Source: PVC group bacterium (lineage in GTDB: Bacteria > Omnitrophota > Gorgyraeia > B26-G9). From it: a stretch of 64,000 nucleotides of DNA. The DNA is taken from the NCBI GenBank assembly GCA_024231215.1, contig JAAEQR010000003.1, forward strand, positions 22,660 to 86,659. The letters are read 5' to 3'. The position numbers and the translations under genes are program-made. The notes below the pieces were generated by a model, which worked only from the letters and a program-made list of their open reading frames with translations, was not told where the DNA came from and did no database searches. Positions 33,021-49,183 of this stretch are shown here, in pieces; position 1 is the first letter of the stretch; every line of letters starts with the position of its first letter.

Positions 33021-34271
33021 ATGACTGGATATGAAATGCGAAAAATATTAAAAATAACCGGATGTATTTTCCTGTTAGCGGGAGTTTTATGTAATGCGCA
33101 AATTGGGGTTTCTCAAGAAGCGTGTTCTAATAATTTACTATCTCCGCGGCTTTCATTACAGCAGGAACATTTTCTTAGGATTTTTTCTGCAGATAAAATT
33201 CCGGCTATTAGACGGACTACGGATAGTAAAACTACTTATTTACCTGCGGATTATAGTTTGGAGGTAAAGGAAATACTTGTCCAGGTGAATTATTGGGGAA
33301 CTATGGAATATGTGATAGACGAAATACATCAAAAACTTCCGCAAGATATTGCGATGGTTATCATTTTTAATGAACGCATTAAGCCGTATTTAGATTATGC
33401 TAAAAACAAGTTATCTTCTCGAAAAGTAAGATTTATAATGTCTGAAAAAATCAGCGTTTGGGCAAGAGATAATTATATCTATTCTTTTTCTAAAAACAAA
33501 CCGATAATGGTGTTTCCAGACGGAGAGTTGCTGCGTAATATGATAGAATTGACGACAGATAAAAGAGCTATCTATAAACTCGCGAAGAAGTTGAAAATAA
33601 AAATAAAACAGGCAAAGTTTCATTTTACCGCGGGTGATATTATGACGGATGAAGAAAATATATTTGTCGGTGCGGCTACTATGCAGGATAACTTTAATAG
33701 ATATAAAATGTCTTGGAAGGAAACGTCTAAAAAAATGCAGGCTTTATTTGGAAATCCGATAGAAGTTCTGCAATTAGATGTAAATGATATTGATAATGTG
33801 CTTACTCTTTTACCGGGCAAGCGGGCAGTATTGGGTAATAATGAGCAGTTTGATAGTTTTTTAAAGGGCCATTATCATGAAAAAGTTGGTGACATTAAAA
33901 AACGTTTACTGGAGTTAGGATATGCGGTTATTGATATCCCCTGGCGGCCGCATGAAATTGATCATGGCCATGCTGATACGACTACGCTGATCTCTTATAA
34001 TAATGTTGTCTTTTTAGACCGTGATAGAATACTTTTGCCTCAGTATGGAATACCGGCAGATAAGGAAGCCATAATGACTTGGGAGCAATTAGGCTATAAG
34101 GTTATCCCGGTTCAGGCATTTTGTAACGGGGAGCATGGCGGAAGTATTCGTTGTTTTACGAATATTATCAACGCTGATTTTATTAATTATGATTCCGAAG
34201 ATTCTTCTAGAATATTCTGTCCCTCAGTTTCTCTTCAGCCGTTAGAACAATTGATTGAAATGGCTATATAA
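33021..34271 (+). CDS. exported amidinotransferase-superfamily enzyme, agmatine deiminase / Porphyromonas-type peptidylarginine deiminase-like
   Basis: It has a signal peptide, and the C-terminal catalytic motif GEHGGSIRCFTN matches the GGG-x-(H/R)-C-x-T Cys-nucleophile signature of the family. Confidence 0.5.
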   Translation: MTGYEMRKILKITGCIFLLAGVLCNAQIGVSQEACSNNLLSPRLSLQQEHFLRIFSADKIPAIRRTTDSKTTYLPADYSLEVKEILVQVNYWGTMEYVIDEIHQKLPQDIAMVIIFNERIKPYLDYAKNKLSSRKVRFIMSEKISVWARDNYIYSFSKNKPIMVFPDGELLRNMIELTTDKRAIYKLAKKLKIKIKQAKFHFTAGDIMTDEENIFVGAATMQDNFNRYKMSWKETSKKMQALFGNPIEVLQLDVNDIDNVLTLLPGKRAVLGNNEQFDSFLKGHYHEKVGDIKKRLLELGYAVIDIPWRPHEIDHGHADTTTLISYNNVVFLDRDRILLPQYGIPADKEAIMTWEQLGYKVIPVQAFCNGEHGGSIRCFTNIINADFINYDSEDSSRIFCPSVSLQPLEQLIEMAI

Positions 34272-34457: not shown

Positions 34458-37400
34458 ATGATTTCAGTATTAAGTCGTAATTTTTTCTTTAGAACAACCG
34501 CAATTATTTTAATTCAAGCATTTTTATTAATAGACATATCGTGGGCCTGTGGTGGGAGGCTTAATGATATTGATGACAGTAAGGTTTTTGAAGATAACTA
34601 CCTTGCTCCTTCCTTAATTATTAATCACTCTGACTTTTCAAGTTATTTTTCTAGTCCAGAAGATATTACTGCGAATCAATTCAGTAGTTTAAGTTCTGCA
34701 GAAATCGAAACCTTAACATATAAACTTGGCCTAACTCTTACCAATGAAAAGCAAGCAGCAAGAGAGATTGAAGAGATTAAGAAAGAACAATTTAAAATAA
34801 TGGATCAGTTTAGTGAAGGGTTAGAGAACAAGGAGCAACGTGAAAAAGCTTTGAATCAGGTAGTAAGAGATACCAATAAAGCGATTGATACTTTAAGGGC
34901 TGATTTTGTTGTGCAGGAGAGGGCAAAAGCTGAGTTAAAAATTAAAGCAGAAGAGTTGAAAATAGAAGCAGAAATTGCAAAGCTAAAATTAGGCAAAGAG
35001 AGAAGAGAAAACTTTGCGAAAGAAGCTCAGCAGGCATATGATCAGGAAATCGCCAAGCTTATTAAAGAAATCAAAGATGCCGCGAAATCAAAAAAAAGAA
35101 AGGCAGAGGAAGAGTATAAGGAACGTGTTAGCAAAATTGAGGAATGTGTTAGCAAAATTAAGGAGGGACTGCTTGAAGGAATATACATATCTGATTCGCT
35201 GGCTCAGGATATTGAAAAAATCAAGCAGGATACAAATGCCAGGATCCAAAAGATAGCTGCGGATATGCGTACTGAGAAGGGCTTTTTAAGCGATACAGTC
35301 AGGGGTATTATTATTGGCGTGTTTAAAATCGCCTGGTATTGGCCAAAAGGTAAGATAGCTGTTTTAAAGATTGAATTGAGCACTCATGAAGGTTATGATC
35401 TTAGCAAGTCTCGTAGTAGATTTAAGGCAGAAGTTAAGGAAATTAATAAATCTGCCAAGGCAGAGATAGAAGCGGTTAGGGACGGAAAAGATAAAAGGAC
35501 ACATAAACTTAAAGAAGAGCTTGATCAGGCTGGTTTAAATATTGAAAAAGATAAAACGAGGCTGGAACAGCTGGAATCAGATAAGAAAAAACAGCCGGAA
35601 ACAATTAGACAAGAAGTAGAAAACGCAATAAAAGAAGCTCAGAAAGATGCAGCTTTAAAAATCCTTAGCGGTCTTCAAGGTGATGAATATGTAGAACTCA
35701 GGCTGAAGGCTTTAGAAACTGTTTTGCCGCTGGTTAAATTATACGAAGACCGCCAGTCAGAAGGCCAGATGGACATGAGAATTGAAAGTAGGGAGGAGTC
35801 CATTGCCGCTTTATTTTTACGCGCGTATCGGGAAGGGCTTAGCGCTATTTCGATTACCGATGCTAAGCAATTACCTTCTCCTGAGGCGGCTAAGGCACAG
35901 CAGATTGTGAACAGACATATCAAGCGTTCTCGAAAGAAAAATGAAGATAAAAGAAAACCGCTGAAATATATTCCGGGAATCGAATTAGTCGTGTCTCTGG
36001 ACGGAGAGAAAGTTCCGGTAATTATCTATCTGCCGGAAAATTCACGTAACTTGGCGAACGATAAGACTGTTCAGGATTTGCTGGCGCGTAGAAGACCGTT
36101 TATGTTACAGGAACTCGCCCATATTTTATACGTATATAACGGAAAGATTGCTTTAGCCGATGCTCATAAATCTCTAAAAGCAGCGCAGATATTTTTTGAA
36201 CGCATGGCGGAATTTGTAATTAAAGGCAGGATCCCGTTGCGGTCCGTATTAGGGGTCGTATATTATGAAGGAACAAAGCAAAAATCTGATGAGCCGGACA
36301 GTCCGGAGAAACAGAAGCTGATGGAGTATATCGCCCGGCTTTGCGTACACCATCCGGTTTATAAACAGAGTGAGCTTTTCTTTCTGCCGGGAACTAATTT
36401 CAGCGGTAGTGTAGATCTGGAAAAGGAAAATATGCTCGGCAGCGGAGCGGATCGTCATCCGCATGAAACGAGTTATCGAGATAGGATTTTAAAGGCAGTA
36501 AATTATAAATCGGGATTATGGGAGAAGATTGTTTATGAATATGAGGGGTTTTTAAAAAACGTTTATATTTGGGGTTTAATGATTACGGCAGGTGTAACGA
36601 TTGTTGGGACACATTCACTTATTTTGGCCGGACTTTTTGCGGTGATGTTCTATTATTTGATTGCGACATATCCTGGATCTAAAAAAAGTGCATTAAAACA
36701 ACAGGTGCAAGTAATTCCCCAGGCAGATATTGCGTCAGAGGAAATGATGAAATACAAAGATTGGAAATTTGATCCGGCTAAAATTCCTCAACCCAAACCA
36801 GAAAGCGAAAAGAGTGCTTCTAAATGGGGAAAAGTGATGGAAACCGCAGGAAATATTTTTGATAAACTGGATATATTAGAAAATCTTTTTTATAGAGCGA
36901 CAGCCGGGACTAAGTATTTTGCCGGCAGTTTGAGAGAGCATTTAAATAAAAATAAGATCACAAATAACTTTTTCAGAAACGATTTGAAGCCCTGGCAAAA
37001 ATGGACTTTCTTTATTTCCAGTTTGACAATAAGCGGAGTATTGGCCGGTTGGTTGGCCGGCAGTGCATGGCTCGGAATTAAAATAGGGGCATTAGTCTGG
37101 GGTATTGCAATAGCGTTAAAGATTTTTGTGTACATAACCGATTGGGATATGGTGCTTTTACTTTTTGGATTTGCTGGTAGTGGGATAGCCGGATGGTTCT
37201 TGGGAAAAGACTACCCGTGGCAAGGAGCTTTTATTGGTCTTACCGGGTGGACGGGTTTTTTAAATAGGAAAGGAATAATATCCTTTTTTAGAGACAGAAT
37301 AAGAAAAGAGATTGATTTTTATAAACGTTTTAGGATGCTTGGGCCCAAGGCTGTTTTTATCCGAAAGACTCTGAAATTACAGCAGGATATGGCTAAGGGA

Positions 37401-38723
37401 ATTGTATATGTGAATATGGTGGGAAAATCGTTTGGCCTGAGAAAAATAGAGGTTGTGAATGTTTTGGCTAAACATGGTTTTGAATATGTAAAGATACAAG
37501 ATGCCAGCACATTGGTATTTGCCAAAAAGGACGTGATGAGAAGGATCGGAGCGGAATTTTTGAAAACAGCTTTAGAAAAATCCGGCACTTCCTGGGAGAA
37601 GATGACCGAGACTTTAAATAAGATCACAGAACATTTTGAAAAAATGCTGGTCGAGGTAACGCTGAGCACAGGGAACGGCAGGACACGTAAAATGTTTATC
37701 CCGGATCCGAGAGAAATTGCCGATGATCAGGTTATGTATAAGCTTTACCGGATTATCGCCATGTACAAGGCACAGGGATTAGTTTTGGAAAATCCCCAAA
37801 CCCGTCTGGTGGTTGATGTAAAAGGAGCGGACGGACAAGTCAGACCAGTTACAGCAAACGAATTGGCCTTAGTTATGAATAAATATTTTGACATTGTAGT
37901 ACCCATGCCGGAGGAGGGAAGTACGCCGGTGAAATCCAGGATTAGTCAGGGGGAGGTAAGGATACTGGAAGCTACCGGACAGCTTAATGAACTTTGGGAA
38001 CAAGGGGTTAAATCTTTAGTTTCGATCAACCTTGGTTCGCAGATCAGAGTGATTGTTGCGGAATTGCTCAAAGATGAAAAAATCGGAACAATTCGGGTAA
38101 CCTCTTATCCGACAGAATTAGGGCGTGACCTGATTGATTTTAGCTCCGAGGCCGGGAAATCGGTAGAAAGTTTGATCAGTGATCAGGCAATATTGGAGGC
38201 GGCGGAAGAGATGGGCTTACTGGAAACGATTGCGCGAGAGTTTAATATGGATAAGGAGAGCGTAACCCCTGAGCATATCGGACTGATCGCTGCCGGGCGA
38301 AATCCTTTTAATCAGGAGCAAGAGTTATACCAGCCTGTAGAGGTTAAAAAGTCGACGATGCATATGGGCAGTAAATATTTTGGCGGAGACACCGGGTCTA
38401 AGCTTGAGCGATTAGAGGCTGTGGCCCAGGAGTTATGGAAAAAGATAGATCGCAAAATAGCGGATTTTATCATCAAGCTGGATGCGGATAGAGCTGCGGA
38501 ACCGGGAAAGACCTCTTATCATCTTAGCGGAGAAACAATGACTTTGGATATCGCTAAGTTAAGAACGGAAAATTTGCGCCGGTTTCTTGAAGAGAAAAAG
38601 GCTGAGCATATCGAATTTTCCTGCGGGGAAGACCCCCTATCGGGAAACGCAATAATCGACCATGATTTAGAGCGGTCTTCTGAGATTACCGAACCTGCTT
38701 TGTTGGTTGAAATGGCGATTTAG
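34458..38723 (+). CDS. leader-family protein 1 (1421 aa): signal peptide, K/E-rich coiled-coil region, internal block of transmembrane helices, C-terminal globular region
   Basis: The leader reads …IILIQAFLLIDISWA|CGG…NYLAPSLIINH. The coiled coil spans aa ~90-420, and 6-8 hydrophobic helices lie at aa ~690-950. Confidence 0.7.
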   Translation: MISVLSRNFFFRTTAIILIQAFLLIDISWACGGRLNDIDDSKVFEDNYLAPSLIINHSDFSSYFSSPEDITANQFSSLSSAEIETLTYKLGLTLTNEKQAAREIEEIKKEQFKIMDQFSEGLENKEQREKALNQVVRDTNKAIDTLRADFVVQERAKAELKIKAEELKIEAEIAKLKLGKERRENFAKEAQQAYDQEIAKLIKEIKDAAKSKKRKAEEEYKERVSKIEECVSKIKEGLLEGIYISDSLAQDIEKIKQDTNARIQKIAADMRTEKGFLSDTVRGIIIGVFKIAWYWPKGKIAVLKIELSTHEGYDLSKSRSRFKAEVKEINKSAKAEIEAVRDGKDKRTHKLKEELDQAGLNIEKDKTRLEQLESDKKKQPETIRQEVENAIKEAQKDAALKILSGLQGDEYVELRLKALETVLPLVKLYEDRQSEGQMDMRIESREESIAALFLRAYREGLSAISITDAKQLPSPEAAKAQQIVNRHIKRSRKKNEDKRKPLKYIPGIELVVSLDGEKVPVIIYLPENSRNLANDKTVQDLLARRRPFMLQELAHILYVYNGKIALADAHKSLKAAQIFFERMAEFVIKGRIPLRSVLGVVYYEGTKQKSDEPDSPEKQKLMEYIARLCVHHPVYKQSELFFLPGTNFSGSVDLEKENMLGSGADRHPHETSYRDRILKAVNYKSGLWEKIVYEYEGFLKNVYIWGLMITAGVTIVGTHSLILAGLFAVMFYYLIATYPGSKKSALKQQVQVIPQADIASEEMMKYKDWKFDPAKIPQPKPESEKSASKWGKVMETAGNIFDKLDILENLFYRATAGTKYFAGSLREHLNKNKITNNFFRNDLKPWQKWTFFISSLTISGVLAGWLAGSAWLGIKIGALVWGIAIALKIFVYITDWDMVLLLFGFAGSGIAGWFLGKDYPWQGAFIGLTGWTGFLNRKGIISFFRDRIRKEIDFYKRFRMLGPKAVFIRKTLKLQQDMAKGIVYVNMVGKSFGLRKIEVVNVLAKHGFEYVKIQDASTLVFAKKDVMRRIGAEFLKTALEKSGTSWEKMTETLNKITEHFEKMLVEVTLSTGNGRTRKMFIPDPREIADDQVMYKLYRIIAMYKAQGLVLENPQTRLVVDVKGADGQVRPVTANELALVMNKYFDIVVPMPEEGSTPVKSRISQGEVRILEATGQLNELWEQGVKSLVSINLGSQIRVIVAELLKDEKIGTIRVTSYPTELGRDLIDFSSEAGKSVESLISDQAILEAAEEMGLLETIAREFNMDKESVTPEHIGLIAAGRNPFNQEQELYQPVEVKKSTMHMGSKYFGGDTGSKLERLEAVAQELWKKIDRKIADFIIKLDADRAAEPGKTSYHLSGETMTLDIAKLRTENLRRFLEEKKAEHIEFSCGEDPLSGNAIIDHDLERSSEITEPALLVEMAI

Positions 38724-38770: not shown

Positions 38771-38806
38771 CCTTGACGAAGTATGCCTTATATGGTATAC
38801 TTTACT
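38771..38806 (+). promoter_or_regulatory. family promoter cassette, copy B: CCTTGACG, 13-nt spacer, ATATGGTATACTTTAC
   Basis: The -35 is at 38773-38778 and the -10 TATACT at 38797-38802. Confidence 0.7.
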
Positions 38807-38861
38807 ACCTATTTTTAAATAATCCAAACTATAATAATAACCTATTGGGAGAAAACAAGTT

Positions 38862-41800
38862 ATGGGTATCAATAAGAAATACCTATATCTAAGAATTATT
38901 GCATGTATTCTAATACAGGCGGTTTTGTTTGGTAACAGCGGCTTGATCGGAGTAGTGCGCGCAGAAAACTTCCTGTCGCCGGTTTTAGAAATAAATAATA
39001 AGCTGGTTAAGACTTCGTTTGAAACTCCTCAGGTAAAAAGTCGTCGTTTTGTTCATAATCTGGATGATTTATCAAAACTTTCCCGCCGCAAAAGAGATGA
39101 TCTCGAAATAAATGTTCTTAAAAGAATTAGAAATATTAATCTCAAAGGTTTTAATTTTTTATCAAGGGAGGAGCAGGAGAATTTCATTTTTGTTGATTTG
39201 GACTTTGCGGAGTATGTGTTAAAGACTATCTTTACCGATAAGATTAAAGAGGACATGTCTCAGAAGAACGTATCTTATGAAATCATAACAAGGATTATAG
39301 TAGACATGTTTATTCTTTTAAACAAGGTGTTAGAACAACAAGAAGGACAGGATAATACCTATATCGCATGCACTAATTATACTTTTTCTAAAGATAGAAA
39401 AGGACAGACATATGTACTCACGGTTAATTTTGAGAAAAAAGGAGTGGAAGCTAAAATATCAAAATTTATAGCCGAAGAAATTGATGCAGAAATGCCGAAT
39501 ATTGTCTCAGTGTCCGGGCCGATAGAAAAAATCACTGGAAATAAAAGTATAGATGTTAGTTTTTACGGGGTTTCAAAAAATAACAAAGTGCTTACCCCAT
39601 CGGAAATAACCCGAGCAGTGAAGAAGCTGCCGCCGAACGCAGAGAATATAGATATTTCGGAATTAAGAATTGCGCATAAAAGATTACTTAATTTGGCCAG
39701 AGATCGTTACGAAAAACAGGATATTTTAAAAGAAATAACCCCAGCCATAGAGAGGAAAATAAAAACAGGTATTGTTGCGGAAGGGACATCTTCTTTTACC
39801 CCGATTACTGAGAAGGCTTTTGTGGGAAAGATTATTTGCGCGGAAGTGGTAGAAAAAGAGAAAAAGCCGACATATCCTTTAGTTTCATATTATTCGGAAA
39901 CATTGAGGAAAGATCTGAGATTATTAGATAATGCTATAAATACGGCTATGTATAAGTATGAAGGTATAGATATTAATACGGTTCATCATTTTTTGCAGGA
40001 TGCCTTTGCGTTTGCAAGACATGATTCTCGGGAAACACGCAAGGCTCCGACAGCTCAATTTTTATCGCATCTTATGGATGAGCGGAAGGCAGTGCGGGTT
40101 AGAATTCGAAAGGAATTATTGGAGATTATTACATATACGCCGATGTTAAATAAAGACAATGAGCCAAGAGAGATTTCGGAAATCATGGAGGAAGAGCTAG
40201 CTGAGTTAGCGGAACTGCAAGATTACGAAGACAATATGTATATCTGGGGAGAACTGAACAGGCTTAATCAAGAGGATTTGCTATGGGATAACATCATGTC
40301 TCAAGCAAATGAAATTGTGGGTAATATATATCAATATATAGAAGGAGTGGACCCTGAACCTAAAAATGAAAAAGAGCAGATGGCTTTAGATGCGATTGAA
40401 AATGCGAGGAAGGCAGTCCCAACAGATACTCAAATTGGGTCTATGGTCGATACTGTATTACAAGATCTGCCGCGGCAGTTATTTGCCTGGTTAAGAAAAT
40501 ATGATTGTTCTTTACATGAGGCGTTTTTTCGGTCTATGCAACCTATTGTAGACCAGTTAGTTCAAGCTCAAGAACATACGTCGCAAATGAAAGGAGGGCT
40601 TTCTTTAAATCTCCATACCGAACTTTGTACTTTTGTGGATACTGTATTGTTGGAACTGGGAGAGTATGAATCGCGGCATGTAGTGGTACATAATGACTCG
40701 GAGAAGGAGCCATTTATATTATATGTGCCGGGAGACCTAGGAGGGCCGGAGGAATATTTGCGTTTTCGGCGTCTTTATCCGAATATGGTAGGGATTGTAG
40801 TTAAAGAAGGAGCTAAACATTATGCGGTAATGGCCGGAGATCACGGATTCCCGGTGATTAATAAAATTGATTTAATTGAAATGAGCGAAGGAAAATTGCC
40901 GTTAGAGCTGGTGTTAAAAAAGAAAACTAATGGAATTATGCGTATTAGCAGGGGAGGGAAAGCGTTTTTATATATAAACCCTTCATTGAGGGATACCCTT
41001 GAGGCGGAAACTATTATAAAAACAGCGCAGGCAATTAAAATATTGTGTGAAGCTAATATAGATTTAGAAGGAGAAGATGGGAAATTAAAGACGTATGATG
41101 GAGTAGAAGCGCCTGAGATAATGATGAATTTGGATATTGCCGAAGATGCGGAAGACTTGCCGAGCCGGGTAATACGGAAAATAGGTCTTTATCGTACAGA
41201 ATATGAGTATGAACGTCATGGAGAGTTAACAGAAGAAGCATGGTATAAAATTTTTAAGAAAATTGTTAAAGATTCAGAGGGCGATTTTATCGCTGTACGT
41301 TTACCGGATAGAAAAGTATCCGGAGAAGGTGGGGATATAAAAAATCCTAAAGCTTTTGGAAAAAGTAATCTTGAAGGACTTGATTTTTTGCTTGATGAAA
41401 GAGCTAAGGGCAGGCGAATCTCAACGATAATATTAAGGGCCCTTATGAGAGTATATGCAGAAGACGGAGTCGTAGGTGCTCTTTTTCCCATGGTTTCGCA
41501 AGAAAGAGCCGAAGGAATAATCGACTTTGTCGAAGAAATAAAAGAGAATTTAATCTTTGAACAAAAAAATAAAAATAAGCGGGAAGCTTTGGAAGAGGCG
41601 TTAGACAGCTTTTCCGTGGGAGCGATGTTTGAAACTCCTCAGGCTTTTGAATTTAAAAAAGAGCTTATGGAGATTTTTGATTTTGTAAGTTGGGGGAGTA
41701 ATGACTGGAAGATGGCTTCTTCCGGGAAGTCAAGAGGTGCTCAGGGAACGACCAAAGAATTGATTTCATTTACGCCTGAGGTTGTAAAAACCGCATTAGC

Positions 41801-42191
41801 GGCAGGTAAGATGAGCAGGAAGAAGGAAGTACCTTTTTCTATCTGTGGTAAGCTTGCGTCTACCCCTGAATTCATTCTATTTTCACTATATGCAAAGTCG
41901 TTGTCGCTTTTTGATATCCGACTAAGCGTTGGTAAAGATTCTATAGCGTACGTCAAAGAATTTATTCGCCATGTCGATACTAGACGCATTAAAGATATCT
42001 TTAATGATTATCGAAAAGGTTATGATCAGAATAAATTTGATGAGAAAATAGCAGATGAAATAGAAAACATAGTGCTTTCTATGGGAGAATTAGCCAAGCC
42101 TTTTCTACAGGGACAAGTTAAGATGTCGTTACAGAAGAAAAGGGGGCAGGCATCGAAGGCTCCTGTGTTAGTGCATGAGTATGCAATATAA
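38862..42191 (+). CDS. leader-family protein 2 (1109 aa): signal peptide plus a C-terminal divergent PEP-utilizing-enzyme module (phosphohistidine swivel domain and PEP-binding TIM barrel)
   Basis: The leader reads …ILIQAVLF…VVRA|ENFLSPVLEINN. The His-domain reads MVGIVVKEGAKHYAVMAGDHGFPVI. The TIM barrel carries GLYRTEYEY, FPMVSQ, FETPQA and DFVSWGSNDW… and CGKLASTPEF. Confidence 0.65.
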   Translation: MGINKKYLYLRIIACILIQAVLFGNSGLIGVVRAENFLSPVLEINNKLVKTSFETPQVKSRRFVHNLDDLSKLSRRKRDDLEINVLKRIRNINLKGFNFLSREEQENFIFVDLDFAEYVLKTIFTDKIKEDMSQKNVSYEIITRIIVDMFILLNKVLEQQEGQDNTYIACTNYTFSKDRKGQTYVLTVNFEKKGVEAKISKFIAEEIDAEMPNIVSVSGPIEKITGNKSIDVSFYGVSKNNKVLTPSEITRAVKKLPPNAENIDISELRIAHKRLLNLARDRYEKQDILKEITPAIERKIKTGIVAEGTSSFTPITEKAFVGKIICAEVVEKEKKPTYPLVSYYSETLRKDLRLLDNAINTAMYKYEGIDINTVHHFLQDAFAFARHDSRETRKAPTAQFLSHLMDERKAVRVRIRKELLEIITYTPMLNKDNEPREISEIMEEELAELAELQDYEDNMYIWGELNRLNQEDLLWDNIMSQANEIVGNIYQYIEGVDPEPKNEKEQMALDAIENARKAVPTDTQIGSMVDTVLQDLPRQLFAWLRKYDCSLHEAFFRSMQPIVDQLVQAQEHTSQMKGGLSLNLHTELCTFVDTVLLELGEYESRHVVVHNDSEKEPFILYVPGDLGGPEEYLRFRRLYPNMVGIVVKEGAKHYAVMAGDHGFPVINKIDLIEMSEGKLPLELVLKKKTNGIMRISRGGKAFLYINPSLRDTLEAETIIKTAQAIKILCEANIDLEGEDGKLKTYDGVEAPEIMMNLDIAEDAEDLPSRVIRKIGLYRTEYEYERHGELTEEAWYKIFKKIVKDSEGDFIAVRLPDRKVSGEGGDIKNPKAFGKSNLEGLDFLLDERAKGRRISTIILRALMRVYAEDGVVGALFPMVSQERAEGIIDFVEEIKENLIFEQKNKNKREALEEALDSFSVGAMFETPQAFEFKKELMEIFDFVSWGSNDWKMASSGKSRGAQGTTKELISFTPEVVKTALAAGKMSRKKEVPFSICGKLASTPEFILFSLYAKSLSLFDIRLSVGKDSIAYVKEFIRHVDTRRIKDIFNDYRKGYDQNKFDEKIADEIENIVLSMGELAKPFLQGQVKMSLQKKRGQASKAPVLVHEYAI

Positions 42192-42202
42192 AAGAGGATA
42201 TT

Positions 42203-44296
42203 ATGGGATTTTCTGGTAAAAAAAGATCGGGCAAATCAATATCTTCACGAATTATCACCCTGATAATTCTACAGATCTTTTTTGTCTCAGGATTGTTGTC
42301 CCTAGGCAATAGCTTTGCTGCGGATACTCACCAAACCTGCCTTTCTCCCCGTGTAAATATATCTAATGCGCTAGTCAAAAATTCTTTTAGTACCTTTAAA
42401 AAGCTTAATTTAAATGATTTGTTTGAAGGATTTGCAGAGGGTATTCTAGACATCGATAAGGTAGATCACTGGTTAGTTGGTCGCAATGAATCTATCGCTT
42501 ATGAGTTTAAAACAGATTTAGTTCCTAAAATTGTACAACAACCCAATGCAAAATGGTTTTTAGAACAAATACTTGCAGAAGATAAACTTAAGCCATTACA
42601 TTTTGAAGCCCAAGCTGTTCTTTTGCAGATACGTTTTAAAGAGCTTGGATATCCTAACCATAACCCAGCCTGGAGACATTTTATATCTTCGATGAAAGAA
42701 GGGCTTCAATTCCTGGAAAACCCTGAAAACTTAGAGAATAAGGATGTAGTTATCGGCACTTGTCATGTGGCTGCGGATTCGGATTCTGTGGCTGCGGCAA
42801 TTACGTGGTATGAACGGGAAAGAATGTTAGCAGAGAATCGAGGAAAGGTTTTTATTCCTTTGATCTCTAATGAGGACAGGGATATAAATCTTGAAACAGA
42901 GAGACAATTGCATATTTGTGGGATAATAGCAGAGGATCTGATATACGCTTTTCCTAGTAAAGAGATGGAGAAAAGAGGCGAGGTTAAAAGCCTGATACAG
43001 CAGAAACTTGAGGCTATTGCTAAAACAAAATATAAGAGTAGAATAAAAATTGATTTGCTCGATCATAATGCGGTACAGGTTGACTGGTTAAAACCTTTTA
43101 AAGTACGTAAGATATATGATCATCATAACCCGGAAGTGGATATGCCGGAATTGGCCCCGGGAAATGATTATGTCCGCATTGAAGCCTCCACGACAACCAT
43201 AATTGCTCAGGAAAACATGAAAGATCGTATTTTCCATAGATCATTTCCACAGATAAAGTTTTTGACTATGGCTACCTTGCTTTCAGATACAGACTGTTTA
43301 AATTCAGATATTACACAGCAAGAAACTCTCGGGATTTTATCTCGGATGGCAAAGGATATGGGTTTTTTAAAAAAAGTGCAGTTAAATGGCGGCATAGGCT
43401 CTAGTGGTAAGATTGATTTTGAAAAAATGGAACGCTATTTTGAAATCATAGTTGATAGGGTTTATCTGAACCGGCATTCTTATGTAGAGGAATGGCTGAG
43501 GGATTGTAAGACATATAATGGGTTTGAATTCGGCCAGTCAAAAGTTATATCTTGGGAAGAGTTGTCTGAGAAAAAAGAAATGGAATTAATCGAAGGCATG
43601 AGAAATAAACTTAATGAAAACGATGACAATGAAGCTATTGTTTGGATGGTATCTTCAATGAATCCGTCTGAGTATGGCAGTAAATTTTATGCAATATGTA
43701 AAGATGACCCAGATGGGGCTAAGGCAGAACAGATTATTAGCCAGGTGATGTATCAAAGTCCGGTAAGGATCGGGCTGGTGCGGTCGATATATGTGAATCC
43801 GGCAATACATGCGTACCAGAAAGACTCTCCGGTGAATCCAGTGAGAGTTTTGAATAGAGCTTATAGACAATTTGATCTTAATCTGGATAGATCAACCAAG
43901 AAACAGATGATGGAAAAGATAAGCAATTTGATACAAGATTATGGAAGTAGATTGAAAAGGGATTTGGTTTATAGATATTATTCGTATGAAATAACCAGTG
44001 ATATAATTGAATTTCTGGAGTCAAAAGGCATATCCTGGATACATGCGGAAGTAATGAAGCCGGAAAAAATATATATCGAGGAAATAGGATTAAAAAACGA
44101 AAGAACGCGCAGGGTTCAAATGCCTGGATTTGCTTCCCGGAAGAATATAAAAAATGAGGTTGAAGGCGCAGTCGCGGAAATCATCAGAATAAATAAAGCT
44201 GAGAGGACATTGCGTTTGAACCTCCGCAATGAAATTATGGGCGCTGATGCTGCTTTTGGAATTCAAGCAAAAGAGTTAGTCTTACAGGCTATTTGA
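42203..44296 (+). CDS. leader-family protein 3 (697 aa): signal peptide plus a DHH-family phosphoesterase-like domain
   Basis: The leader reads …LILQIFFVSGLLSLGNSFA|ADTHQTCLSPRVNISN. DHH motif I is GTCHVAADSDSVAAA and motif III is IYDHHNP. It sits 11 nt after protein 2 and is likely co-transcribed with it. Confidence 0.55.
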   Translation: MGFSGKKRSGKSISSRIITLIILQIFFVSGLLSLGNSFAADTHQTCLSPRVNISNALVKNSFSTFKKLNLNDLFEGFAEGILDIDKVDHWLVGRNESIAYEFKTDLVPKIVQQPNAKWFLEQILAEDKLKPLHFEAQAVLLQIRFKELGYPNHNPAWRHFISSMKEGLQFLENPENLENKDVVIGTCHVAADSDSVAAAITWYERERMLAENRGKVFIPLISNEDRDINLETERQLHICGIIAEDLIYAFPSKEMEKRGEVKSLIQQKLEAIAKTKYKSRIKIDLLDHNAVQVDWLKPFKVRKIYDHHNPEVDMPELAPGNDYVRIEASTTTIIAQENMKDRIFHRSFPQIKFLTMATLLSDTDCLNSDITQQETLGILSRMAKDMGFLKKVQLNGGIGSSGKIDFEKMERYFEIIVDRVYLNRHSYVEEWLRDCKTYNGFEFGQSKVISWEELSEKKEMELIEGMRNKLNENDDNEAIVWMVSSMNPSEYGSKFYAICKDDPDGAKAEQIISQVMYQSPVRIGLVRSIYVNPAIHAYQKDSPVNPVRVLNRAYRQFDLNLDRSTKKQMMEKISNLIQDYGSRLKRDLVYRYYSYEITSDIIEFLESKGISWIHAEVMKPEKIYIEEIGLKNERTRRVQMPGFASRKNIKNEVEGAVAEIIRINKAERTLRLNLRNEIMGADAAFGIQAKELVLQAI

Positions 44297-44480: not shown

Positions 44481-46349
44481 ATGCTATCCAAACGAATAAT
44501 AAAAGTTGTTGCAGTTGTTATTATCCAGATGTTTTTATTTATGGATTTTGCCTGGGCAGCGGATTGTCTAAGTCCTTCTTTGAATTTTAGCGGAACTCAA
44601 TTTTCCTCTCATTACAATATTATTTCTGAGGCAATTAAGATTTTTGAAGAATTAGAAGGAGCTCAGGAACAATTTGTTATCAAATCAGGTGATAATTATT
44701 TTTACGTTTATAATCCTAATAATGCTTCAAAAACATTATTAACAAATGCAGAAGTTATTATTAATAATGAAGACGTAGCAGTTGCTTTATTGGGTGATTT
44801 TAAATACCAGAAGACAGAAAAGAAGCTAGTAGAGCCGGTGAAAAATGTAAATATTATTACGGATTTATATTCAGTTCAGCAATGGCGTTCAATATTTGAA
44901 ATGATTATTCACGGGGTTGGTCCGAATAAACCAGGATATTCTCGGGACTATATCCCGCATGTCAAACGATGGTTTAGGCTTCTTTTTAAACAGATAACTG
45001 GGGTAGAGCCTCCAGCTGAAGCTGTTTATTTTTTCGAGGCAGTATATGCGGATGTTGTTACTAGCCGGGTTAATCCTATGGTAAAAAAATACAATAAAGA
45101 AGAAGAGCGTTATGGGGTGCGTGAAATAGAATTAACTCAAAAGGCGATAGGTAATTTTGCGGCAACGCCCTACGCATACATGGATGCAGGTGTTAGAGAA
45201 GAGATGTATAAAAAATTAGATGCGGTTTTAGCAGAGATAGTAGAGATAGCTCTAGCTCAAGGAGCGACTGGCGATTGGCCGACAGCATTAAATGCAATAA
45301 TGCACAGCCAGGGAACGGTCACCGGAACTGAATGGATCCAGGACCGATTAGAAAAAGGAATGTGGCCGGATGTATTGCAGACAGATAAAATAATATTAAT
45401 TGGTGGGGTGTTATGGCTCAAATCAATTCTTAGAAGCAGACCTTTAAGTGATCCTTTAAGAGTTCAAAAATTTGGAGGAATGATTGTAAATATTAAAGAC
45501 CCGCAAGATGCAATTGGAAGATTTTTAAGGCTATTGAGCCCTGAATTTGCGGATGCGATATTTGCTGATGGGTATCTTAATGTGGGAAGTTTTTTAAACC
45601 CATTATCACATACAATTGCTTCTCATACTAAGTATTGGAATAGTCGTAGAATCGCTAAAATCAAGGCAATGATGCTTGTATTTAGCGCATTAAGGCAGAA
45701 TCCCGCGTGGTTAACCAAATACGGACGCAAGTCTTTAGATATTAATGCAGCAGAAACTGAATTCAGAAGAGATCTTCTAAAATTACTTAGAAGTGACTTA
45801 TCCTCCTTGCCCCAGCATGATCCGGAACTTATTGGGCCGGGGTATAAATTTGTGTCTAATGATGAGAATGAGGCTACGGGAGGTATCTTTGTTTTAAATG
45901 AAGCGGCTGAAAAAATTGGATTTTATGCGGACAATAAAACAGTTGCTGCAAATAATGATATCATTGAGCCGATCAAAGCAAAAGTTAAATTTACAAAAAA
46001 TCTTACAGCTAAAGTAGAAGAGTTAAATAAAATCACTCCGGATAGAGCAAATAACCAGGGGTATATGATGATTAATTCTTTGAATCAGGAAGCGGCGAAT
46101 CAAATTAGAGACAAAATTAAAGAAATCAGTTTATTTGTAGAACAGTTTCAGGGTGCAGATACACGGGAGCTTGCTGTACGGATTAAGGAAGTGCAGGATT
46201 TAGCTAGACAGAATATGGACATTTCTAAATTAGATGAAATTAAAGTAAAAATGCAGAATTTGCTTAGTACTACTATAAAGTCAATTGAAGTTTGTAAGCC
46301 TGCTTCAGGGCAGAGTTCAATTATTGCTGCAATCAGTATATCAATATAA
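44481..46349 (+). CDS. leader-family protein 4 (622 aa), function unknown
   Basis: The leader reads …VVIIQMFLFMDFAWA|ADCLSPSLNFSG. The 5' end has a nucleotide-level resemblance to the neighbouring gene at 46364. Confidence 0.65.
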   Translation: MLSKRIIKVVAVVIIQMFLFMDFAWAADCLSPSLNFSGTQFSSHYNIISEAIKIFEELEGAQEQFVIKSGDNYFYVYNPNNASKTLLTNAEVIINNEDVAVALLGDFKYQKTEKKLVEPVKNVNIITDLYSVQQWRSIFEMIIHGVGPNKPGYSRDYIPHVKRWFRLLFKQITGVEPPAEAVYFFEAVYADVVTSRVNPMVKKYNKEEERYGVREIELTQKAIGNFAATPYAYMDAGVREEMYKKLDAVLAEIVEIALAQGATGDWPTALNAIMHSQGTVTGTEWIQDRLEKGMWPDVLQTDKIILIGGVLWLKSILRSRPLSDPLRVQKFGGMIVNIKDPQDAIGRFLRLLSPEFADAIFADGYLNVGSFLNPLSHTIASHTKYWNSRRIAKIKAMMLVFSALRQNPAWLTKYGRKSLDINAAETEFRRDLLKLLRSDLSSLPQHDPELIGPGYKFVSNDENEATGGIFVLNEAAEKIGFYADNKTVAANNDIIEPIKAKVKFTKNLTAKVEELNKITPDRANNQGYMMINSLNQEAANQIRDKIKEISLFVEQFQGADTRELAVRIKEVQDLARQNMDISKLDEIKVKMQNLLSTTIKSIEVCKPASGQSSIIAAISISI

Positions 46350-46363: not shown

Positions 46364-49183
46364 ATGTTATCTAAGAGATTCGTAAAAATTATTTCAATTG
46401 TAATCATTCAGGCATTTTTGGTTTTGGACTTTGCCTGGGCCATGGGGCCTGATGCCAGATTTTTTGATGCCGGAGCACAGGAATATCTTGCTCCGACATT
46501 AACTATTAACAGCGCGCCGATTCAGGCAACTTTGCAAAATATGATGGCGCGTGAGAAATCACTTCAGGATGTTATTGATTTTGGCAAAGAAGAAAAAACA
46601 GAATTCTTTGCCGGGTTATCTAAAGAAGAAAAAATAAAACAGCTTGAACAATGGATGGCTGCGTCTTTTGAAGGCGGCGGACCCAAAGGCGCTTATGAAG
46701 CAGGGATTGGACAACTGTTTATGGAGTCATGGATGCATTTGAAAAACCAGGGCAAGGAAGATGTTACCGGGTTTGATGTTATCGGGGGTAACTCCGCAGG
46801 TGCAATTAATGCTTTGTTTTTTAGTTTAGCAATAATGTATGATCCGACTTTTGTTAAATATAATGAAATTACCTGGGTAAAACATTTAAATTTAAAGAAT
46901 TTATTAGAACCGGGCCAAAATTATAATCCTAAGAACGCAGTTTTTTCCAGCCAAATAATAGATCGCGCAATAAAAGCCATAGAGCAAAAGTTGGAAGAGT
47001 GTAAGAATAACGACAAGACTCTTTCTTATGCTCCGGAAGAGATAAGAGTTGTTTTTTCAGTAACCAATCTTAGTGGAACTCCTTATTGGGATGAAGTGAA
47101 GAATCTTCTGGATGGTAAAAAAGGTATTAGATATGACCACCAGGGGAAAATCCATTTTACAATTAAAAAGAAAGACCGCTACAGTCCTGAGACTATGGAA
47201 ATGCTTACATTGATGATGAAAGTTGCGGTAGCTTCAGCATCAATTCCAATTGTTTTTGAAGCGCGAAAAATAGCTCAGTCAGTTAGAGCTTATCCTGGCA
47301 GCATTTTGGCAAACATGGCTGTGAAAGCCGGGAAATGGCTTACCGAAAAAATCACATCAATTTTTGTCGATGGAATGCTTGTAGACAACAAGGCGATAAA
47401 AACAGTAGCAAAGCTAGCTAGGAAGAAGGATATTGAAGAGGGAATGCTGAACAGCAATTTGCGCAATAGATTGCAAGTGGCTATTTCACCGAATGTAATA
47501 GATGATACCGAAGGAGAAAGATTTGATAAACAGGATATCCCTTCTGTTGCTATGAAGAGCCTTAGTGCGGTTATGGCGCAAGTTCTTTATCAGAATGAAA
47601 AGATTGATGAGATAAATAAGAAAAACACGCTGATTACGCATTTCATACAGGATATACAGAAACAGGCTGAAAAAGTAAAGCGTTATAAATGGAGTAAGAA
47701 GCGACTAAAGCAGGAGATTGATGAGTTATTATTCGGATCAAGTTACAGTCTTATTAAACGCAAAAGTGAAAATAGAGCCAAAAGACACATTCTAAAGGAA
47801 ACAGGAAAAGAAGTGGAATATGAAGCGACCAAGGATGAAGTAGCCTGGTATATAAAAAGAAATAAAGAACGTGTAATCAGGCAGCGTTTGCTGGCCAACG
47901 GAATTATTACCGAAGCACAGCTTAACAGTCAGGATGAACGGGATAAATTGTTTATTGATTACTTGGCACTTTTTACGTTTGTCGAGGAATGCGGTCGTGA
48001 TTTAAGAGGCAGGGAAGAAGTATACGTACATCAGATTGCGCCAACTAAGCATCCTTTGGCATCTGATCTCTTGCTCGGGTTTTTGAGTGAGGATGTCAGG
48101 CAGGCTGATTTTAATCAGGGATATGAAGATGCACGATTGGCATTGGAGGCGCTTTTAGGTGTGGATCTTTCTGGTTTGCGCCGGCAGGAATCGGTTCAGC
48201 AGACGGAAGGTTATCAGTTTGCTTATAGCAATGTTTCTTTGACAGAAAGAAAAGAAATAGTAAATATGCTTATTGCCAGAGCAAAACTTATTGTTAAAAC
48301 TATCTTAAGCAAAAAACATTCGTCCTTGGTGGGTAAAATATTCGCTCAGCCGGGGATTGTGGGAAGAAATATTCTGCTTAGTGGTGCTTTAATATTTGTT
48401 AAAAAAATGCTGGCAAAACAATTTCATATTCCTCAGGATGAAAAAAATGCTAAAGCAAGAAGAGTCGAGTCTTTAAAGCTAAATATGCGTAATAATATTT
48501 TATATAAAGAGAATGAACTTTATAATTTAAAGGAAACAAAAGCAAGGCTGGAGCAAATAGCTAATTCTAAGAAGCCGGTTGCAGTTATTGTAGGTAGTGA
48601 TTTAGAAACTTCATTTGAGGCAATGTCTGTGATTAGTAGGTATAGAAAAGATATTACTATTCTTAAAGCACCACATGGAGAGACCCCTGGACAAGCTTTG
48701 CGAACAAGTTATACAAAAGGAAAAGAGACTATTGATTTACATAAATCTACCCAATATAACAGAGATGTTATTTTAAAAACTTTTATTTTAAATTCAGGAA
48801 TTTTAATTAGTACTAAAAAGATGCTGGATAAATATTCTCGAATTGGAGGTAATTACAAAATTACAGAATTGGGGGAAAAAGCAGAAGCCGAGTGGGCAAC
48901 AATTATTAATAATAAAGAACATATAATTATATTGGGAGAGACCCCGGAACAATTAAAACCGATATTAAAGGATAAGGATGTATTAGAAATAGAGACAGCA
49001 AAGCATAGGAAGGCTTTGAATAGAAAAATCCCCTTTGTCGGCAGGAATGTTTGGGAGAAATATTTTGGCAAAGATAAGCAAGCTAAAACACGTAATTTAC
49101 TGGACCTTCGTTATGTACCTAGTTTTGGTGGATATAAACAACCATTGATGATGCATAATAATCTGGTGAATATAGCAATTTAA
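46364..49183 (+). CDS. leader-family protein 5 (939 aa): signal peptide plus a patatin-like phospholipase domain (ExoU/VipD-type)
   Basis: The leader reads …IVIIQAFLVLDFAWA|MGP…EYLAPTLTINS. The patatin blocks are GGGPKGAYEAG (oxyanion hole), GGNSAGA (GxSxG) and FVDGMLVDN (catalytic Asp). Confidence 0.65.
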   Translation: MLSKRFVKIISIVIIQAFLVLDFAWAMGPDARFFDAGAQEYLAPTLTINSAPIQATLQNMMAREKSLQDVIDFGKEEKTEFFAGLSKEEKIKQLEQWMAASFEGGGPKGAYEAGIGQLFMESWMHLKNQGKEDVTGFDVIGGNSAGAINALFFSLAIMYDPTFVKYNEITWVKHLNLKNLLEPGQNYNPKNAVFSSQIIDRAIKAIEQKLEECKNNDKTLSYAPEEIRVVFSVTNLSGTPYWDEVKNLLDGKKGIRYDHQGKIHFTIKKKDRYSPETMEMLTLMMKVAVASASIPIVFEARKIAQSVRAYPGSILANMAVKAGKWLTEKITSIFVDGMLVDNKAIKTVAKLARKKDIEEGMLNSNLRNRLQVAISPNVIDDTEGERFDKQDIPSVAMKSLSAVMAQVLYQNEKIDEINKKNTLITHFIQDIQKQAEKVKRYKWSKKRLKQEIDELLFGSSYSLIKRKSENRAKRHILKETGKEVEYEATKDEVAWYIKRNKERVIRQRLLANGIITEAQLNSQDERDKLFIDYLALFTFVEECGRDLRGREEVYVHQIAPTKHPLASDLLLGFLSEDVRQADFNQGYEDARLALEALLGVDLSGLRRQESVQQTEGYQFAYSNVSLTERKEIVNMLIARAKLIVKTILSKKHSSLVGKIFAQPGIVGRNILLSGALIFVKKMLAKQFHIPQDEKNAKARRVESLKLNMRNNILYKENELYNLKETKARLEQIANSKKPVAVIVGSDLETSFEAMSVISRYRKDITILKAPHGETPGQALRTSYTKGKETIDLHKSTQYNRDVILKTFILNSGILISTKKMLDKYSRIGGNYKITELGEKAEAEWATIINNKEHIIILGETPEQLKPILKDKDVLEIETAKHRKALNRKIPFVGRNVWEKYFGKDKQAKTRNLLDLRYVPSFGGYKQPLMMHNNLVNIAI

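What the first reader, a model, noticed from the sequence alone, without database searches (positions are those of the whole stretch)
38862..42191. Leader-family protein 2 carries a divergent PEP-utilizing-enzyme module (PEP synthase / PPDK / Enzyme I type) behind a secretion signal
The C-terminal ~550 aa contain the phosphohistidine swivel-domain signature GIVVKEGAKHYAVMAGDHGFPVI (compare G-x-TSHAAI-AR-E-x-GIP-VVG) and the PEP-binding TIM-barrel signatures GLYRTEYEY, NPKAFGKSNLEGL, FPMVSQ, FETPQA, DFVSWGSNDW (compare DFFSIGTNDL) and CGKLASTPEF. PEP-utilizing enzymes are cytoplasmic phosphotransferases. Putting one behind a Sec signal and the family leader suggests it works in another cell's cytoplasm, for example by phosphorylating a host or prey substrate in the way rifampin phosphotransferase acts on a small molecule. 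Alternatively it could be a periplasmic enzyme, for which I know of no precedent. The N-terminal ~500 aa have no recognisable ATP-grasp motifs.
Basis: partly seen in the sequence, partly recalled or inferred. Interest (0 to 1): 0.75.

Follow-up and report, generated by a model that had tools for sequence, protein, structure and literature searches.

The report
Exported Enzyme I-like PEP phosphotransferase, Omnitrophota
This gene from an uncultured Omnitrophota-type bacterium encodes a complete but very divergent copy of the sugar-uptake enzyme "Enzyme I", placed behind an export signal and inside a co-regulated set of apparently exported enzymes, so it may move phosphate from PEP outside its own cytoplasm.

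Summary
ORF 38862-42191 (1109 aa) has a significant PEP-binding TIM barrel (Pfam PF02896, E=2e-23), and all seven quoted motifs are at the stated positions.

The module is Enzyme I (PtsI)-like, not PPDK, PEP synthase or rifampin phosphotransferase type.
- N-terminal strands.
- A helical insert roughly twice the size of the one in Enzyme I.
- A swivel domain with His653.
- A linker helix and the barrel.

Residues 60-300 form a family-specific domain of unknown fold. There is no ATP-grasp domain.

The roughly 1000-aa unit is almost confined to Omnitrophota. It occurs either stand-alone or as an internal cassette in giant proteins.

The protein has a Sec-type signal peptide, an LSPxLxI motif and an E-x-A-I tail. 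It shares these, and a conserved promoter 12-mer, with 10 unrelated neighbours, including patatin, deiminase and DHH proteins.

Export is inferred from sequence only. The acceptor and the site of action are unknown.

The parts
38773..38802 (+). Promoter-like element: TTGACG, 17 nt, TATACT with an extended -10. It contains the 12-mer TATGGTATACTT shared by the leader-family transcription units.
   Evidence: There are six exact + strand copies in the window, all directly upstream of leader-family genes. Chance expectation is 0.46. The same 12-mer lies upstream of leader-family genes in L001 and L007.
38847..38851 (+). Ribosome-binding site GGGAG, 10 nt before the ATG.
   Evidence: read directly from the sequence.
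38862..42191 (+). Whole ORF, 1109 aa plus stop. It is identical to NCBI MAG protein GY853_00295 (PVC group bacterium).
38862..38960 (+). Sec-type signal peptide, aa 1-33. The n-region MGINKKYLYLR carries +3. The h-region is IIACILIQAVLF, with the family-typical Gln. The c-region ends in VRA followed by EN.
   Evidence: All 11 paralogues and orthologues P0002/6/7/10 show the same layout. This is inferred from sequence; no signal-peptide predictor was available.
38973..38993 (+). Leader motif LSPVLEI (aa 38-44), family consensus L[SA]PxhxI.
   Evidence: It co-occurs with the C-terminal tail at Fisher p=6e-13.
39039..39761 (+). Family-specific N-domain, about aa 60-300: a helical bundle, a beta-beta-alpha-beta-beta unit, then helices. 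The fold is unassigned.
   Evidence: The model is confident here (pLDDT mostly 80-95). The domain is conserved in orthologues and in fragments P0022 and P0139. There is no PDB sequence hit at E<=10 and no consistent Pfam hit.
39765..39854 (+). Strands aa 302-331, corresponding to the N-terminal strands of the Enzyme I alpha/beta (swivel) subdomain.
   Evidence: hhalign to Enzyme I residues 1-60 gives Prob 58.6%, pairwise E=9.5e-5. MAFFT places Enzyme I residue 1 at query aa 306. The model has strands at 304-331. Foldseek aligns 611 columns to the 572-aa full-length Enzyme I.
39894..40655 (+). Expanded helical insert, aa 345-598 (about 10 helices), at the topological position of Enzyme I's HPr-binding alpha subdomain (about 110 aa in Enzyme I).
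40659..40985 (+). Swivel phospho-histidine domain, aa 600-708. The candidate phospho-His is His653 (codon 40818-40820) in the motif G-x-K-H-Y.
   Evidence: In the model, His653 is the first residue of helix 653-660.
40986..41054 (+). Linker helix aa 709-731 between the swivel domain and the barrel, as in Enzyme I.
41091..41978 (+). PEP/pyruvate-binding TIM barrel, aa 744-1039. Key residues are R778, R813, D816, E924, N947, D948, R958 and C995.
41979..42143 (+). C-terminal helices aa 1040-1094, conserved in the family (VKEFIRHIDT and following).
42162..42188 (+). C-terminal tail ...APVLVHEYAI. Family consensus is h-h-E/Q-x-[AS]-I at the C-terminus.
42203..44296 (+). Downstream gene, 12 nt after the stop, with no promoter 12-mer in between: a leader/tail protein with a weak DHH / family II pyrophosphatase-like region. 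It is probably co-transcribed.
   Evidence: DHH E=1.2e-4, below the cut-off; PpaC model E=2.6e-7, far below the cut-off. The pairing is not conserved in L001, L007 or L010.

Best explanation
The gene encodes a Sec-exported, catalytically competent, Enzyme I-like PEP-dependent phosphotransferase.

Proposed mechanism:
- PEP binds with Mg2+ in the C-terminal TIM barrel (R778, R813, E924, N947/D948, R958; C995 as proton donor to the enolate).
- The phosphoryl group passes to His653 on the swivel domain.
- The swivel domain then swings to the enlarged helical insert and/or the family-specific N-domain (aa 60-300), which present an acceptor that is not canonical HPr.

The roughly 1000-aa unit is an Omnitrophota cassette. 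It is used either as a stand-alone protein or inside giant proteins.

In this genome the enzyme belongs to a co-regulated set of unrelated enzymes (deiminase-like, DHH-like, patatin-like and others). They share a specialised signal peptide, an LSPxLxI motif, an E-x-A-I C-terminus and one promoter element. I read that shared signature as a sorting signature for proteins that work outside the producer's cytoplasm. PEP exists only inside cells, so the enzyme most likely acts in or at a host or prey cell.

Status of each step:
- Shown: the domain architecture, the conserved catalytic residues, the family distribution, and the shared leader, tail and promoter.
- Inferred: catalytic activity, export, the identity of the acceptor and the site of action.
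For: Identity as an Enzyme I-like enzyme:
- PF02896 E=2.2e-23.
- Enzyme I models outscore PEP synthase and PPDK models: 61 vs 39 vs 13 bits.
- hhalign of the family to the Enzyme I N-terminal domain gives 97.8%, E=7e-13, with His653 on the phospho-His.
- The AF2 model has pLDDT 84.8 and pTM 0.69.
- The top Foldseek hits are full-length Enzyme I: 2hwg_A E=2.7e-19, 611 columns, TMt 0.65.

Catalytic competence: H653, R778, E780, R813, D816, E924, N947, D948 and C995 are conserved in all close relatives and in the giant-protein cassettes.

Family: a distinct subfamily of 12 proteins at E<=1e-30, well separated from ordinary Enzyme I at about 1e-13. Seven of nine genome loci are Candidatus Omnitrophota MAGs. 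The whole cassette sits inside ORFs of >4779 and >6933 aa.

Export and regulon:
- All 11 paralogues have a positive n-region, a hydrophobic core and a small-x-small site.
- Orthologues keep both the leader and the tail.
- Leader and tail co-occur in 17 of 19 carriers against 42 ORFs with neither, p=6e-13.
- The paralogues share only the leader.
- The promoter 12-mer occurs six times, always upstream of leader genes, and also in other MAGs.
- The neighbours are effector-like enzymes.
Against: - No experiment and no dedicated signal-peptide predictor supports export.
- PEP is not known to be available in a periplasm.
- The query's swivel region does not hit PF00391 directly.
- Enzyme I Arg358, the third phosphate ligand, has no clear counterpart. 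It aligns to L843 or E846 depending on the method.
- R958 is deleted in two orthologues.
- The same cassette in giant proteins lies near a GT1 glycosyltransferase and a SEC-C motif, both typically cytoplasmic.
- Some distant relatives carry a similar tail without an N-terminal signal peptide.
- No acceptor, HPr-like partner or secretion machine was identified.
Confidence: 0.5

Rival explanations
1. The enzyme is exported but stays with the producer, in the periplasm, on the cell surface or at the contact zone. There it processes metabolites released from lysed or attached prey. It might take the phosphoryl group from scavenged PEP onto a sugar, glycan or other nutrient, or run in reverse. This would parallel the glycolytic-enzyme domains predicted to be extracellular in Archaeovorins.
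For: It has the same Sec-type leader as in the best explanation. West-Roberts et al. report glycolytic and 'pyruvate-diphosphate kinase' domains in predicted extracellular parts of giant proteins and suggest extracellular pre-processing. The cassette lies near glycosyltransferase domains in a giant protein. The gene is co-transcribed with a DHH phosphoesterase-like protein.
Against: No free PEP pool is known outside cells. No carbohydrate-binding module was detected in the N-domain. The neighbouring patatin and deiminase-type enzymes look more like effectors that act on another cell.
Confidence: 0.2
2. The protein is not exported. The N-terminal hydrophobic segment and the tail would be membrane-anchoring or assembly tags, holding a set of cytoplasmic-face enzymes together. 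This would be an 'unbundled' version of the membrane-anchored giant proteins. The Enzyme I-like unit would then work in the producer's own cytoplasm with ordinary PEP.
For: The identical cassette is internal to giant proteins, flanked by cytoplasmic-type domains. In P0004 and P0005 the cassette is followed by transmembrane helices. A 2026 preprint predicts that 46% of long Omnitrophota proteins are TM-only with cytoplasmic bulk. Some relatives have the tail without a signal peptide. PEP is available only in the cytoplasm.
Against: The n-regions carry +1 to +5 charge. The hydrophobic cores are short (about 12-20 aa) with helix-breaking residues and small-x-small sites. This predicts N-in orientation and cleavage, which puts the bulk outside. 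Genuine outer-membrane proteins in the same window have comparable signal peptides.
Confidence: 0.17
3. The module is a degenerate, non-catalytic relic used as a scaffold or binding domain.
For: Identity to Enzyme I is low (16-24%). There is no direct PF00391 hit, and scores are far below the NCBIfam equivalog cut-offs. The Arg358 equivalent is unclear.
Against: The phospho-His, the Mg ligands, the PEP-binding arginines and the catalytic Cys are all retained across relatives only 25-40% identical, including the giant-protein cassettes. This indicates selection on catalysis.
Confidence: 0.05

Closest known systems
Enzyme I of the bacterial PEP:sugar phosphotransferase system (PtsI; also PtsP/EI-Ntr)
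   Same: The domain order and fold are the same: N-terminal strands, a helical insert, a swivel His domain, a linker helix and the PEP-binding TIM barrel. The phospho-His, two PEP-binding arginines, Mg ligands E/D, N, R and the catalytic Cys are conserved. Full-length Enzyme I gives the best sequence, profile and structure matches.
   Different: - Identity is about 16-24%, and scores lie far below the equivalog cut-offs.
- The motif around the His is G-x-K-H-Y instead of G-G-x-T-S-H.
- The helical insert is about 255 aa against about 110 aa.
- There is an extra 240-aa N-domain and an extra C-terminal helical region.
- It carries a Sec signal peptide with leader and tail motifs.
- The Arg358 equivalent is unclear.
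- No HPr or PTS context was seen.
Pyruvate phosphate dikinase / PEP synthase
   Different: There is no ATP-grasp nucleotide-binding domain (no PF01326 hit). The N-terminal region is mostly helical in the model. The His domain is split by a helical insert as in Enzyme I, which PPDK and PEP synthase do not have.
PEP/pyruvate-dikinase-type domains in giant Omnitrophota 'Archaeovorin' proteins (West-Roberts et al., bioRxiv 10.1101/2023.11.21.568195)
   Same: Same phylum and probably the same domain family. The whole roughly 1000-aa cassette of this protein occurs inside ORFs of >4779 and >6933 aa from Omnitrophota MAGs.
   Different: Here the cassette is a stand-alone 1109-aa protein with its own signal peptide, leader motif, tail and promoter. 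The preprint names the domain only in one sentence. It does not describe the Enzyme I-like architecture or the stand-alone exported form.
Rifampin phosphotransferase
   Same: It uses a swivel phospho-His domain to phosphorylate a non-protein acceptor.
   Different: That enzyme is ATP-grasp driven and lacks the PEP-binding barrel (established knowledge of the family). This protein has the barrel and no ATP-grasp domain.

Membership tests
PEP-utilising enzyme superfamily | PEP/pyruvate-binding TIM barrel (Pfam PF02896) above the gathering score | tested here: met
PEP-utilising enzyme superfamily | Mobile (swivel) domain with a conserved phospho-acceptor His (Pfam PF00391) | tested here: inconclusive
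   The query gives no direct PF00391 hit even at E<=10. However, hhalign gives 97.8% with His653 on the Enzyme I phospho-His. Aligned regions of relatives P0124 and P0015 pass the cut-off at 29.5 and 33.9 bits. The His is invariant. The feature is therefore met by transitive homology and structure, not by the curated model.
PEP-utilising enzyme superfamily | Catalytic residues of the barrel (Enzyme I numbering R296, R332, R358, E431, N454, D455, R465, C502) | tested here: met
   R778, R813, E924, N947, D948, R958 and C995 are aligned and conserved. The exception is R358, which has no clear counterpart (L843 or E846). R958 is missing in two orthologues.
Enzyme I (PtsI) of the PTS | NCBIfam equivalog score (TIGR01417, NF008382, NF008283) | tested here: not met
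   61.4, 46.7 and 61.5 bits against cut-offs of 341.7, 824 and 583.
Enzyme I (PtsI) of the PTS | N-terminal domain architecture: the alpha/beta subdomain split by a helical HPr-binding subdomain (PF05524) | tested here: inconclusive
Enzyme I (PtsI) of the PTS | Phosphoryl transfer to HPr, with PTS genes (ptsH, EII) in the genome | not testable with these tools
   No HPr-like gene was recognised among the window ORFs scanned. The rest of the genome is not available.
Enzyme I (PtsI) of the PTS | Cytoplasmic, with no signal peptide | tested here: not met
   The protein has an N-terminal Sec-type signal peptide, conserved in orthologues.
PPDK / PEP synthase / rifampin phosphotransferase | N-terminal ATP-grasp nucleotide-binding domain (PF01326) | tested here: not met
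   No hit at E<=10. The model shows a helical bundle plus a small beta-beta-alpha-beta-beta unit in aa 60-300.
Omnitrophota leader/tail protein set (defined here, not a curated family) | Signal peptide with an hhhQxFL core, an L[SA]PxhxI motif, a C-terminal [E/Q]-x-[AS]-[IV], and the upstream TATGGTATACTT promoter element | tested here: met
   No NCBIfam model matches the leader or the tail.

The most novel reading that the evidence does not exclude
The leader (a specialised signal peptide plus LSPxLxI), the E-x-A-I C-terminus and the conserved promoter 12-mer together mark an undescribed, phylum-wide Omnitrophota sorting regulon. This regulon would deliver cytoplasmic-type enzymes into or onto host or prey cells. 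Within it, the Enzyme I-like protein would be a PEP-driven effector that drains the prey's PEP pool or phosphorylates a prey target. That would be the first PEP-utilising enzyme working outside its producer's cytoplasm.
Probability: 0.25. Interest if true: 0.85.

Novelty: new variant of a known kind. Interest (0 to 1): 0.62.

Why it matters
Enzyme I-type PEP phosphotransferases are regarded as strictly cytoplasmic entry points of the sugar phosphotransferase system.

This is a conserved, catalytically intact Enzyme I-like cassette with several unusual properties:
- It has a new N-domain and an enlarged acceptor-binding region.
- It is placed behind an export signal.
- It is also embedded in the giant proteins of predatory or parasitic Omnitrophota.

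If it is active, PEP-driven phosphotransfer has been recruited for a different job. That job could be attack on, or feeding from, another cell.

The finding gives a concrete, testable enzyme: His653, Cys995 and PEP-dependent autophosphorylation. It could be used to probe what the enigmatic giant proteins and the apparent secretome of this uncultured phylum actually do.

The shared leader, tail and promoter signature also gives a simple handle for cataloguing that secretome.

Tried and rejected
- Single-sequence AlphaFold gave an unusable model (pLDDT 33).
- Word-indexed homologue searches with the full protein or the full family alignment returned essentially only the query. The exhaustive HMMER search was needed.
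- The look-up of encoding contigs had no record of the protein.
- The first genome scan failed for lack of conserved columns. It worked with a trimmed alignment.
- The metagenome scan added only two loci, which belong to a known orthologue.
- PPDK, PEP synthase and rifampin phosphotransferase architectures are rejected because there is no ATP-grasp domain.
- The idea that the other leader-family proteins of the window are also cassettes of the fetched giant proteins found no support.
- The idea that the DHH neighbour is a conserved partner found no support in L001, L007 or L010. It also has no PDB sequence match.
- A class III (prepilin-type) signal was considered and rejected by eye. There is no G/F-x-x-x-E site.
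- A literature search for secreted PEP-utilising enzymes returned nothing. The 2026 Omnitrophota preprint does not mention PEP, PTS or Enzyme I.
Full report
**1. Observation**

A GGGAG ribosome-binding site lies 10 nt upstream. All seven quoted motifs are present at aa 644-1004.

- Pfam PEP-utilizers_C (PF02896) matches aa 744-1039 at E=2.2e-23, 83 bits against a cut-off of 22.8.
- NCBIfam Enzyme I/PtsP models align aa 642-1050 at E~5e-17. PEP synthase (1.8e-10) and PPDK (0.019) models score lower, and all are far below the equivalog cut-offs.
- The best solved-structure sequence matches are Enzyme I and its C-terminal domain, at E=2e-10.
- The protein is identical to NCBI MAG protein GY853_00295 from a 'PVC group bacterium'.

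**2. Type of PEP-utilising enzyme**

An exhaustive HMMER search found 1405 relatives. Twelve of them reach E<=1e-30 and are 26-40% identical. They are separated by a wide gap from ordinary 570-600-aa Enzyme I proteins at E~1e-13.

Pfam PF00391 does not detect the query's swivel region, even in isolation. Three results support it anyway:
- A profile of the family (aa 290-745) aligns to a profile of the Enzyme I N-terminal domain at 97.8% probability, E=7e-13. Query 536-744 corresponds to Enzyme I 88-261, and His653 falls on the phospho-His.
- More distant relatives aligned in the same region pass the PF00391 cut-off at 29.5 and 33.9 bits.
- Further upstream, aa 302-360 align weakly (58.6%, pairwise E=9.5e-5) to the first 60 residues of Enzyme I. 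MAFFT places Enzyme I residue 1 at query aa 306.

An AlphaFold model built on a 48-sequence alignment is confident (mean pLDDT 84.8, pTM 0.69). It shows, in order:
- strands at 304-331;
- about ten helices at 345-598;
- an alpha/beta domain at 605-705, with His653 as the first residue of a helix;
- a long linker helix at 709-731;
- a TIM barrel at 753-1036.

The module is therefore Enzyme I-like and spans about aa 302-1050. There is no ATP-grasp domain. This excludes the PPDK, PEP synthase and rifampin phosphotransferase architectures.

**3. Catalytic residues**

Residues were mapped through the PDB alignment, in which Enzyme I numbering can be read directly.

| Enzyme I | This protein |
|---|---|
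| R296 | R778 |
| R332 | R813 |
| D335 | D816 |
| E431 | E924 |
| N454 / D455 | N947 / D948 |
| R465 | R958 |
| C502 | C995 |

These residues are conserved in all close relatives and in the cassettes of giant proteins. R958 is the exception; it is deleted in two orthologues.

Enzyme I R358 has no clear counterpart. It aligns to L843 or E846 depending on the method. The family has its own conserved R817, and R851 is conserved in most members shown. Whether either substitutes for R358 could not be checked without the model coordinates.

Overall the pattern argues for a working PEP/pyruvate site and a working phospho-His.

**4. Parts that are not Enzyme I-like**

- Residues 60-300 form a well-predicted domain: a helical bundle, a beta-beta-alpha-beta-beta unit, then helices. 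It is conserved across the family and occurs in fragments P0022 and P0139. It has no PDB or Pfam match.
- The helical insert is about 255 aa, compared with about 110 aa in Enzyme I. Only its last part aligns confidently to Enzyme I.
- These two regions are the obvious candidates for binding a non-HPr acceptor. That is an inference.

**5. Distribution**

Seven of nine matching loci in the species-representative genomes are Candidatus Omnitrophota MAGs. The other two are short contigs binned elsewhere.

Stand-alone orthologues P0002, P0006, P0007, P0010 and the L007 ORF are 1050-1150 aa. They keep both the N-terminal leader and the C-terminal tail.

In L003 and L009 the whole cassette (family HMM positions 6-1043 and 70-1022) is internal to ORFs of >4779 and >6933 aa. 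In L009 it lies between a GT1 glycosyltransferase and a SEC-C motif.

[quoted passage not shown] This is partial precedent for the domain in this phylum. It does not cover the Enzyme I-like architecture or the stand-alone signal-peptide form.

**6. The leader**

Eleven ORFs in the window (15252, 33021, 34458, 38862, 42203, 44481, 46364, 49449, 55089, 56668, 58097) share the following features:
- a positive n-region (+1 to +5);
- a short hydrophobic core, usually with the pattern hhhQxFL;
- a small-x-small site, often W-A;
- after 0-18 residues, the motif L[SA]PxhxI;
- at the very C-terminus, h-h-[E/Q]-x-[AS]-[IV].

Genuine outer-membrane proteins in the same window (25925, 31353) have ordinary signal peptides without these extras.

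I counted non-shadow ORFs of at least 200 aa in the window and three related loci. Leader and tail co-occur in 17, occur singly in 1 each, and are absent in 42 (Fisher p=6e-13). BLASTP finds nothing shared between paralogues beyond the leader. No NCBIfam model covers the leader or the tail.

Recognisable domains in the set are a PAD_porph deiminase, a weak DHH / family II pyrophosphatase-like region, patatin and TPR repeats.

An exact 12-mer, TATGGTATACTT, forms an extended -10 and sits 17 nt after a TTGAC(A/G). It occurs six times on the + strand, each time directly upstream of a leader-family gene. Chance expectation is 0.46. The same 12-mer lies upstream of leader-family genes in L001 and L007, whose proteins are only about 30% identical to those here.

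The set therefore looks like a regulon with a shared sorting signature. By promoter positions, 38862 is co-transcribed with the DHH-like gene 42203. That pairing is not conserved elsewhere.

**7. Interpretation**

Most likely (about 0.5), this is an exported, active, Enzyme I-like enzyme. It would autophosphorylate His653 from PEP and hand the phosphoryl group to an unknown, non-HPr acceptor. PEP exists only inside cells, so the enzyme would act in or at another cell.

The rivals are:
- It works at the producer's surface or periplasm on scavenged metabolites (about 0.2).
- It is not exported, and the leader and tail are membrane or assembly tags for cytoplasmic-face enzymes, as in the TM-anchored giants (about 0.17). 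Support comes from the cytoplasmic-type neighbours of the cassette in giants and from tails without signal peptides in distant relatives.
- It is a catalytically dead scaffold (about 0.05). The conserved catalytic residues contradict this.

Export, the acceptor and the site of action are all inferred and not shown.

**8. Verdict**

Its interpretation is partly supported.

The protein is a new variant of a known kind: an Enzyme I-like PEP-utilising enzyme with a new domain context and an export signature. It belongs to a phylum where related domains have been glimpsed inside giant proteins. The broader leader, tail and promoter system is the more novel element and deserves its own follow-up.

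Noticed in passing
window 15252-16244, 33021-34271, 34458-38723, 38862-42191, 42203-44296, 44481-46349, 46364-49183, 49449-55019, 55089-56639, 56668-57936, 58097-60730; also L001, L007, L010: Eleven otherwise unrelated ORFs share a specialised signal peptide (hhhQxFL core, often a W-A site), an L[SA]PxhxI motif shortly after it, and a C-terminal h-h-[E/Q]-x-[AS]-[IV]. Leader and tail co-occur at Fisher p=6e-13. No NCBIfam model covers either. This looks like an undescribed sorting signature in Omnitrophota.
   Followed up: partly
window 32977, 34391, 38791, 44398, 49399, 58032 (+ strand); L001 7347(-) and 7543(+); L007 2931(+): The exact 12-mer TATGGTATACTT (an extended -10, preceded about 17 nt earlier by TTGAC[A/G]) occurs only upstream of leader-family transcription units. 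There are six copies against 0.46 expected. It is conserved in other Omnitrophota MAGs whose proteins are about 30% identical, which suggests a dedicated regulon.
   Followed up: partly
window 29851-30852 and 31353-32825: A sigma-54 activator (AAA+ plus HTH_8) and a signal-peptide-bearing outer-membrane beta-barrel (TraF_2, E=1.4e-31, with a weak PorP/SprF match) lie immediately upstream of the main leader-family cluster. The barrel is a candidate outer-membrane partner for the set.
   Followed up: no
window 42203-44296: This leader/tail protein has weak DHH / family II pyrophosphatase-like matches. By eye it carries the motifs CHVAADSD, LLDHN and YDHHNPE. It starts 12 nt after the Enzyme I-like gene, with no promoter 12-mer between them, so it is probably co-transcribed. 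The pairing is not conserved in other loci.
   Followed up: partly
L003 8-14347 and L009 2-20803: Omnitrophota ORFs of >4779 and >6933 aa, truncated by contig or locus ends, contain the entire roughly 1000-aa cassette internally. L009 also has a GT1 glycosyltransferase upstream and a SEC-C motif downstream of the cassette.
   Followed up: partly
window 25925-28153: A patatin-like phospholipase is fused to an Omp85-type beta-barrel and carries an ordinary signal peptide. This resembles the type Vd (PlpD-like) autotransporter architecture. A second patatin domain sits in leader-family protein 46364-49183.
   Followed up: no
window 1-64000: GC skew is strongly positive (0.12-0.32) in every 2-kb window at about 38% GC. 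All but one of the non-shadow ORFs of at least 150 aa are on the + strand; the exception is 14470-15078 (-).
   Followed up: no
P0101, P0026, P0015, P0011 (distant relatives): More distant PEP-module proteins end in related tails (FAISA, LSAISA, LSSAA, LSSSI). P0101 also has a leader (…LWALAPETVF). P0015 (7316 aa) shows the tail without an N-terminal signal peptide, so the tail may not be strictly coupled to Sec export.
   Followed up: no
L006, L007, L010: In one clade the orthologue is the last gene of a run of leader-family genes. It is followed by conserved housekeeping genes: a ~565-580-aa protein with a hydrophobic N-terminal region (domain content not checked), a conserved ~350-aa ORF (hemB-like by eye, not tested), and a conserved ORF that looks radical-SAM-like by eye (not tested). 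This synteny confirms orthology within that clade.
   Followed up: no
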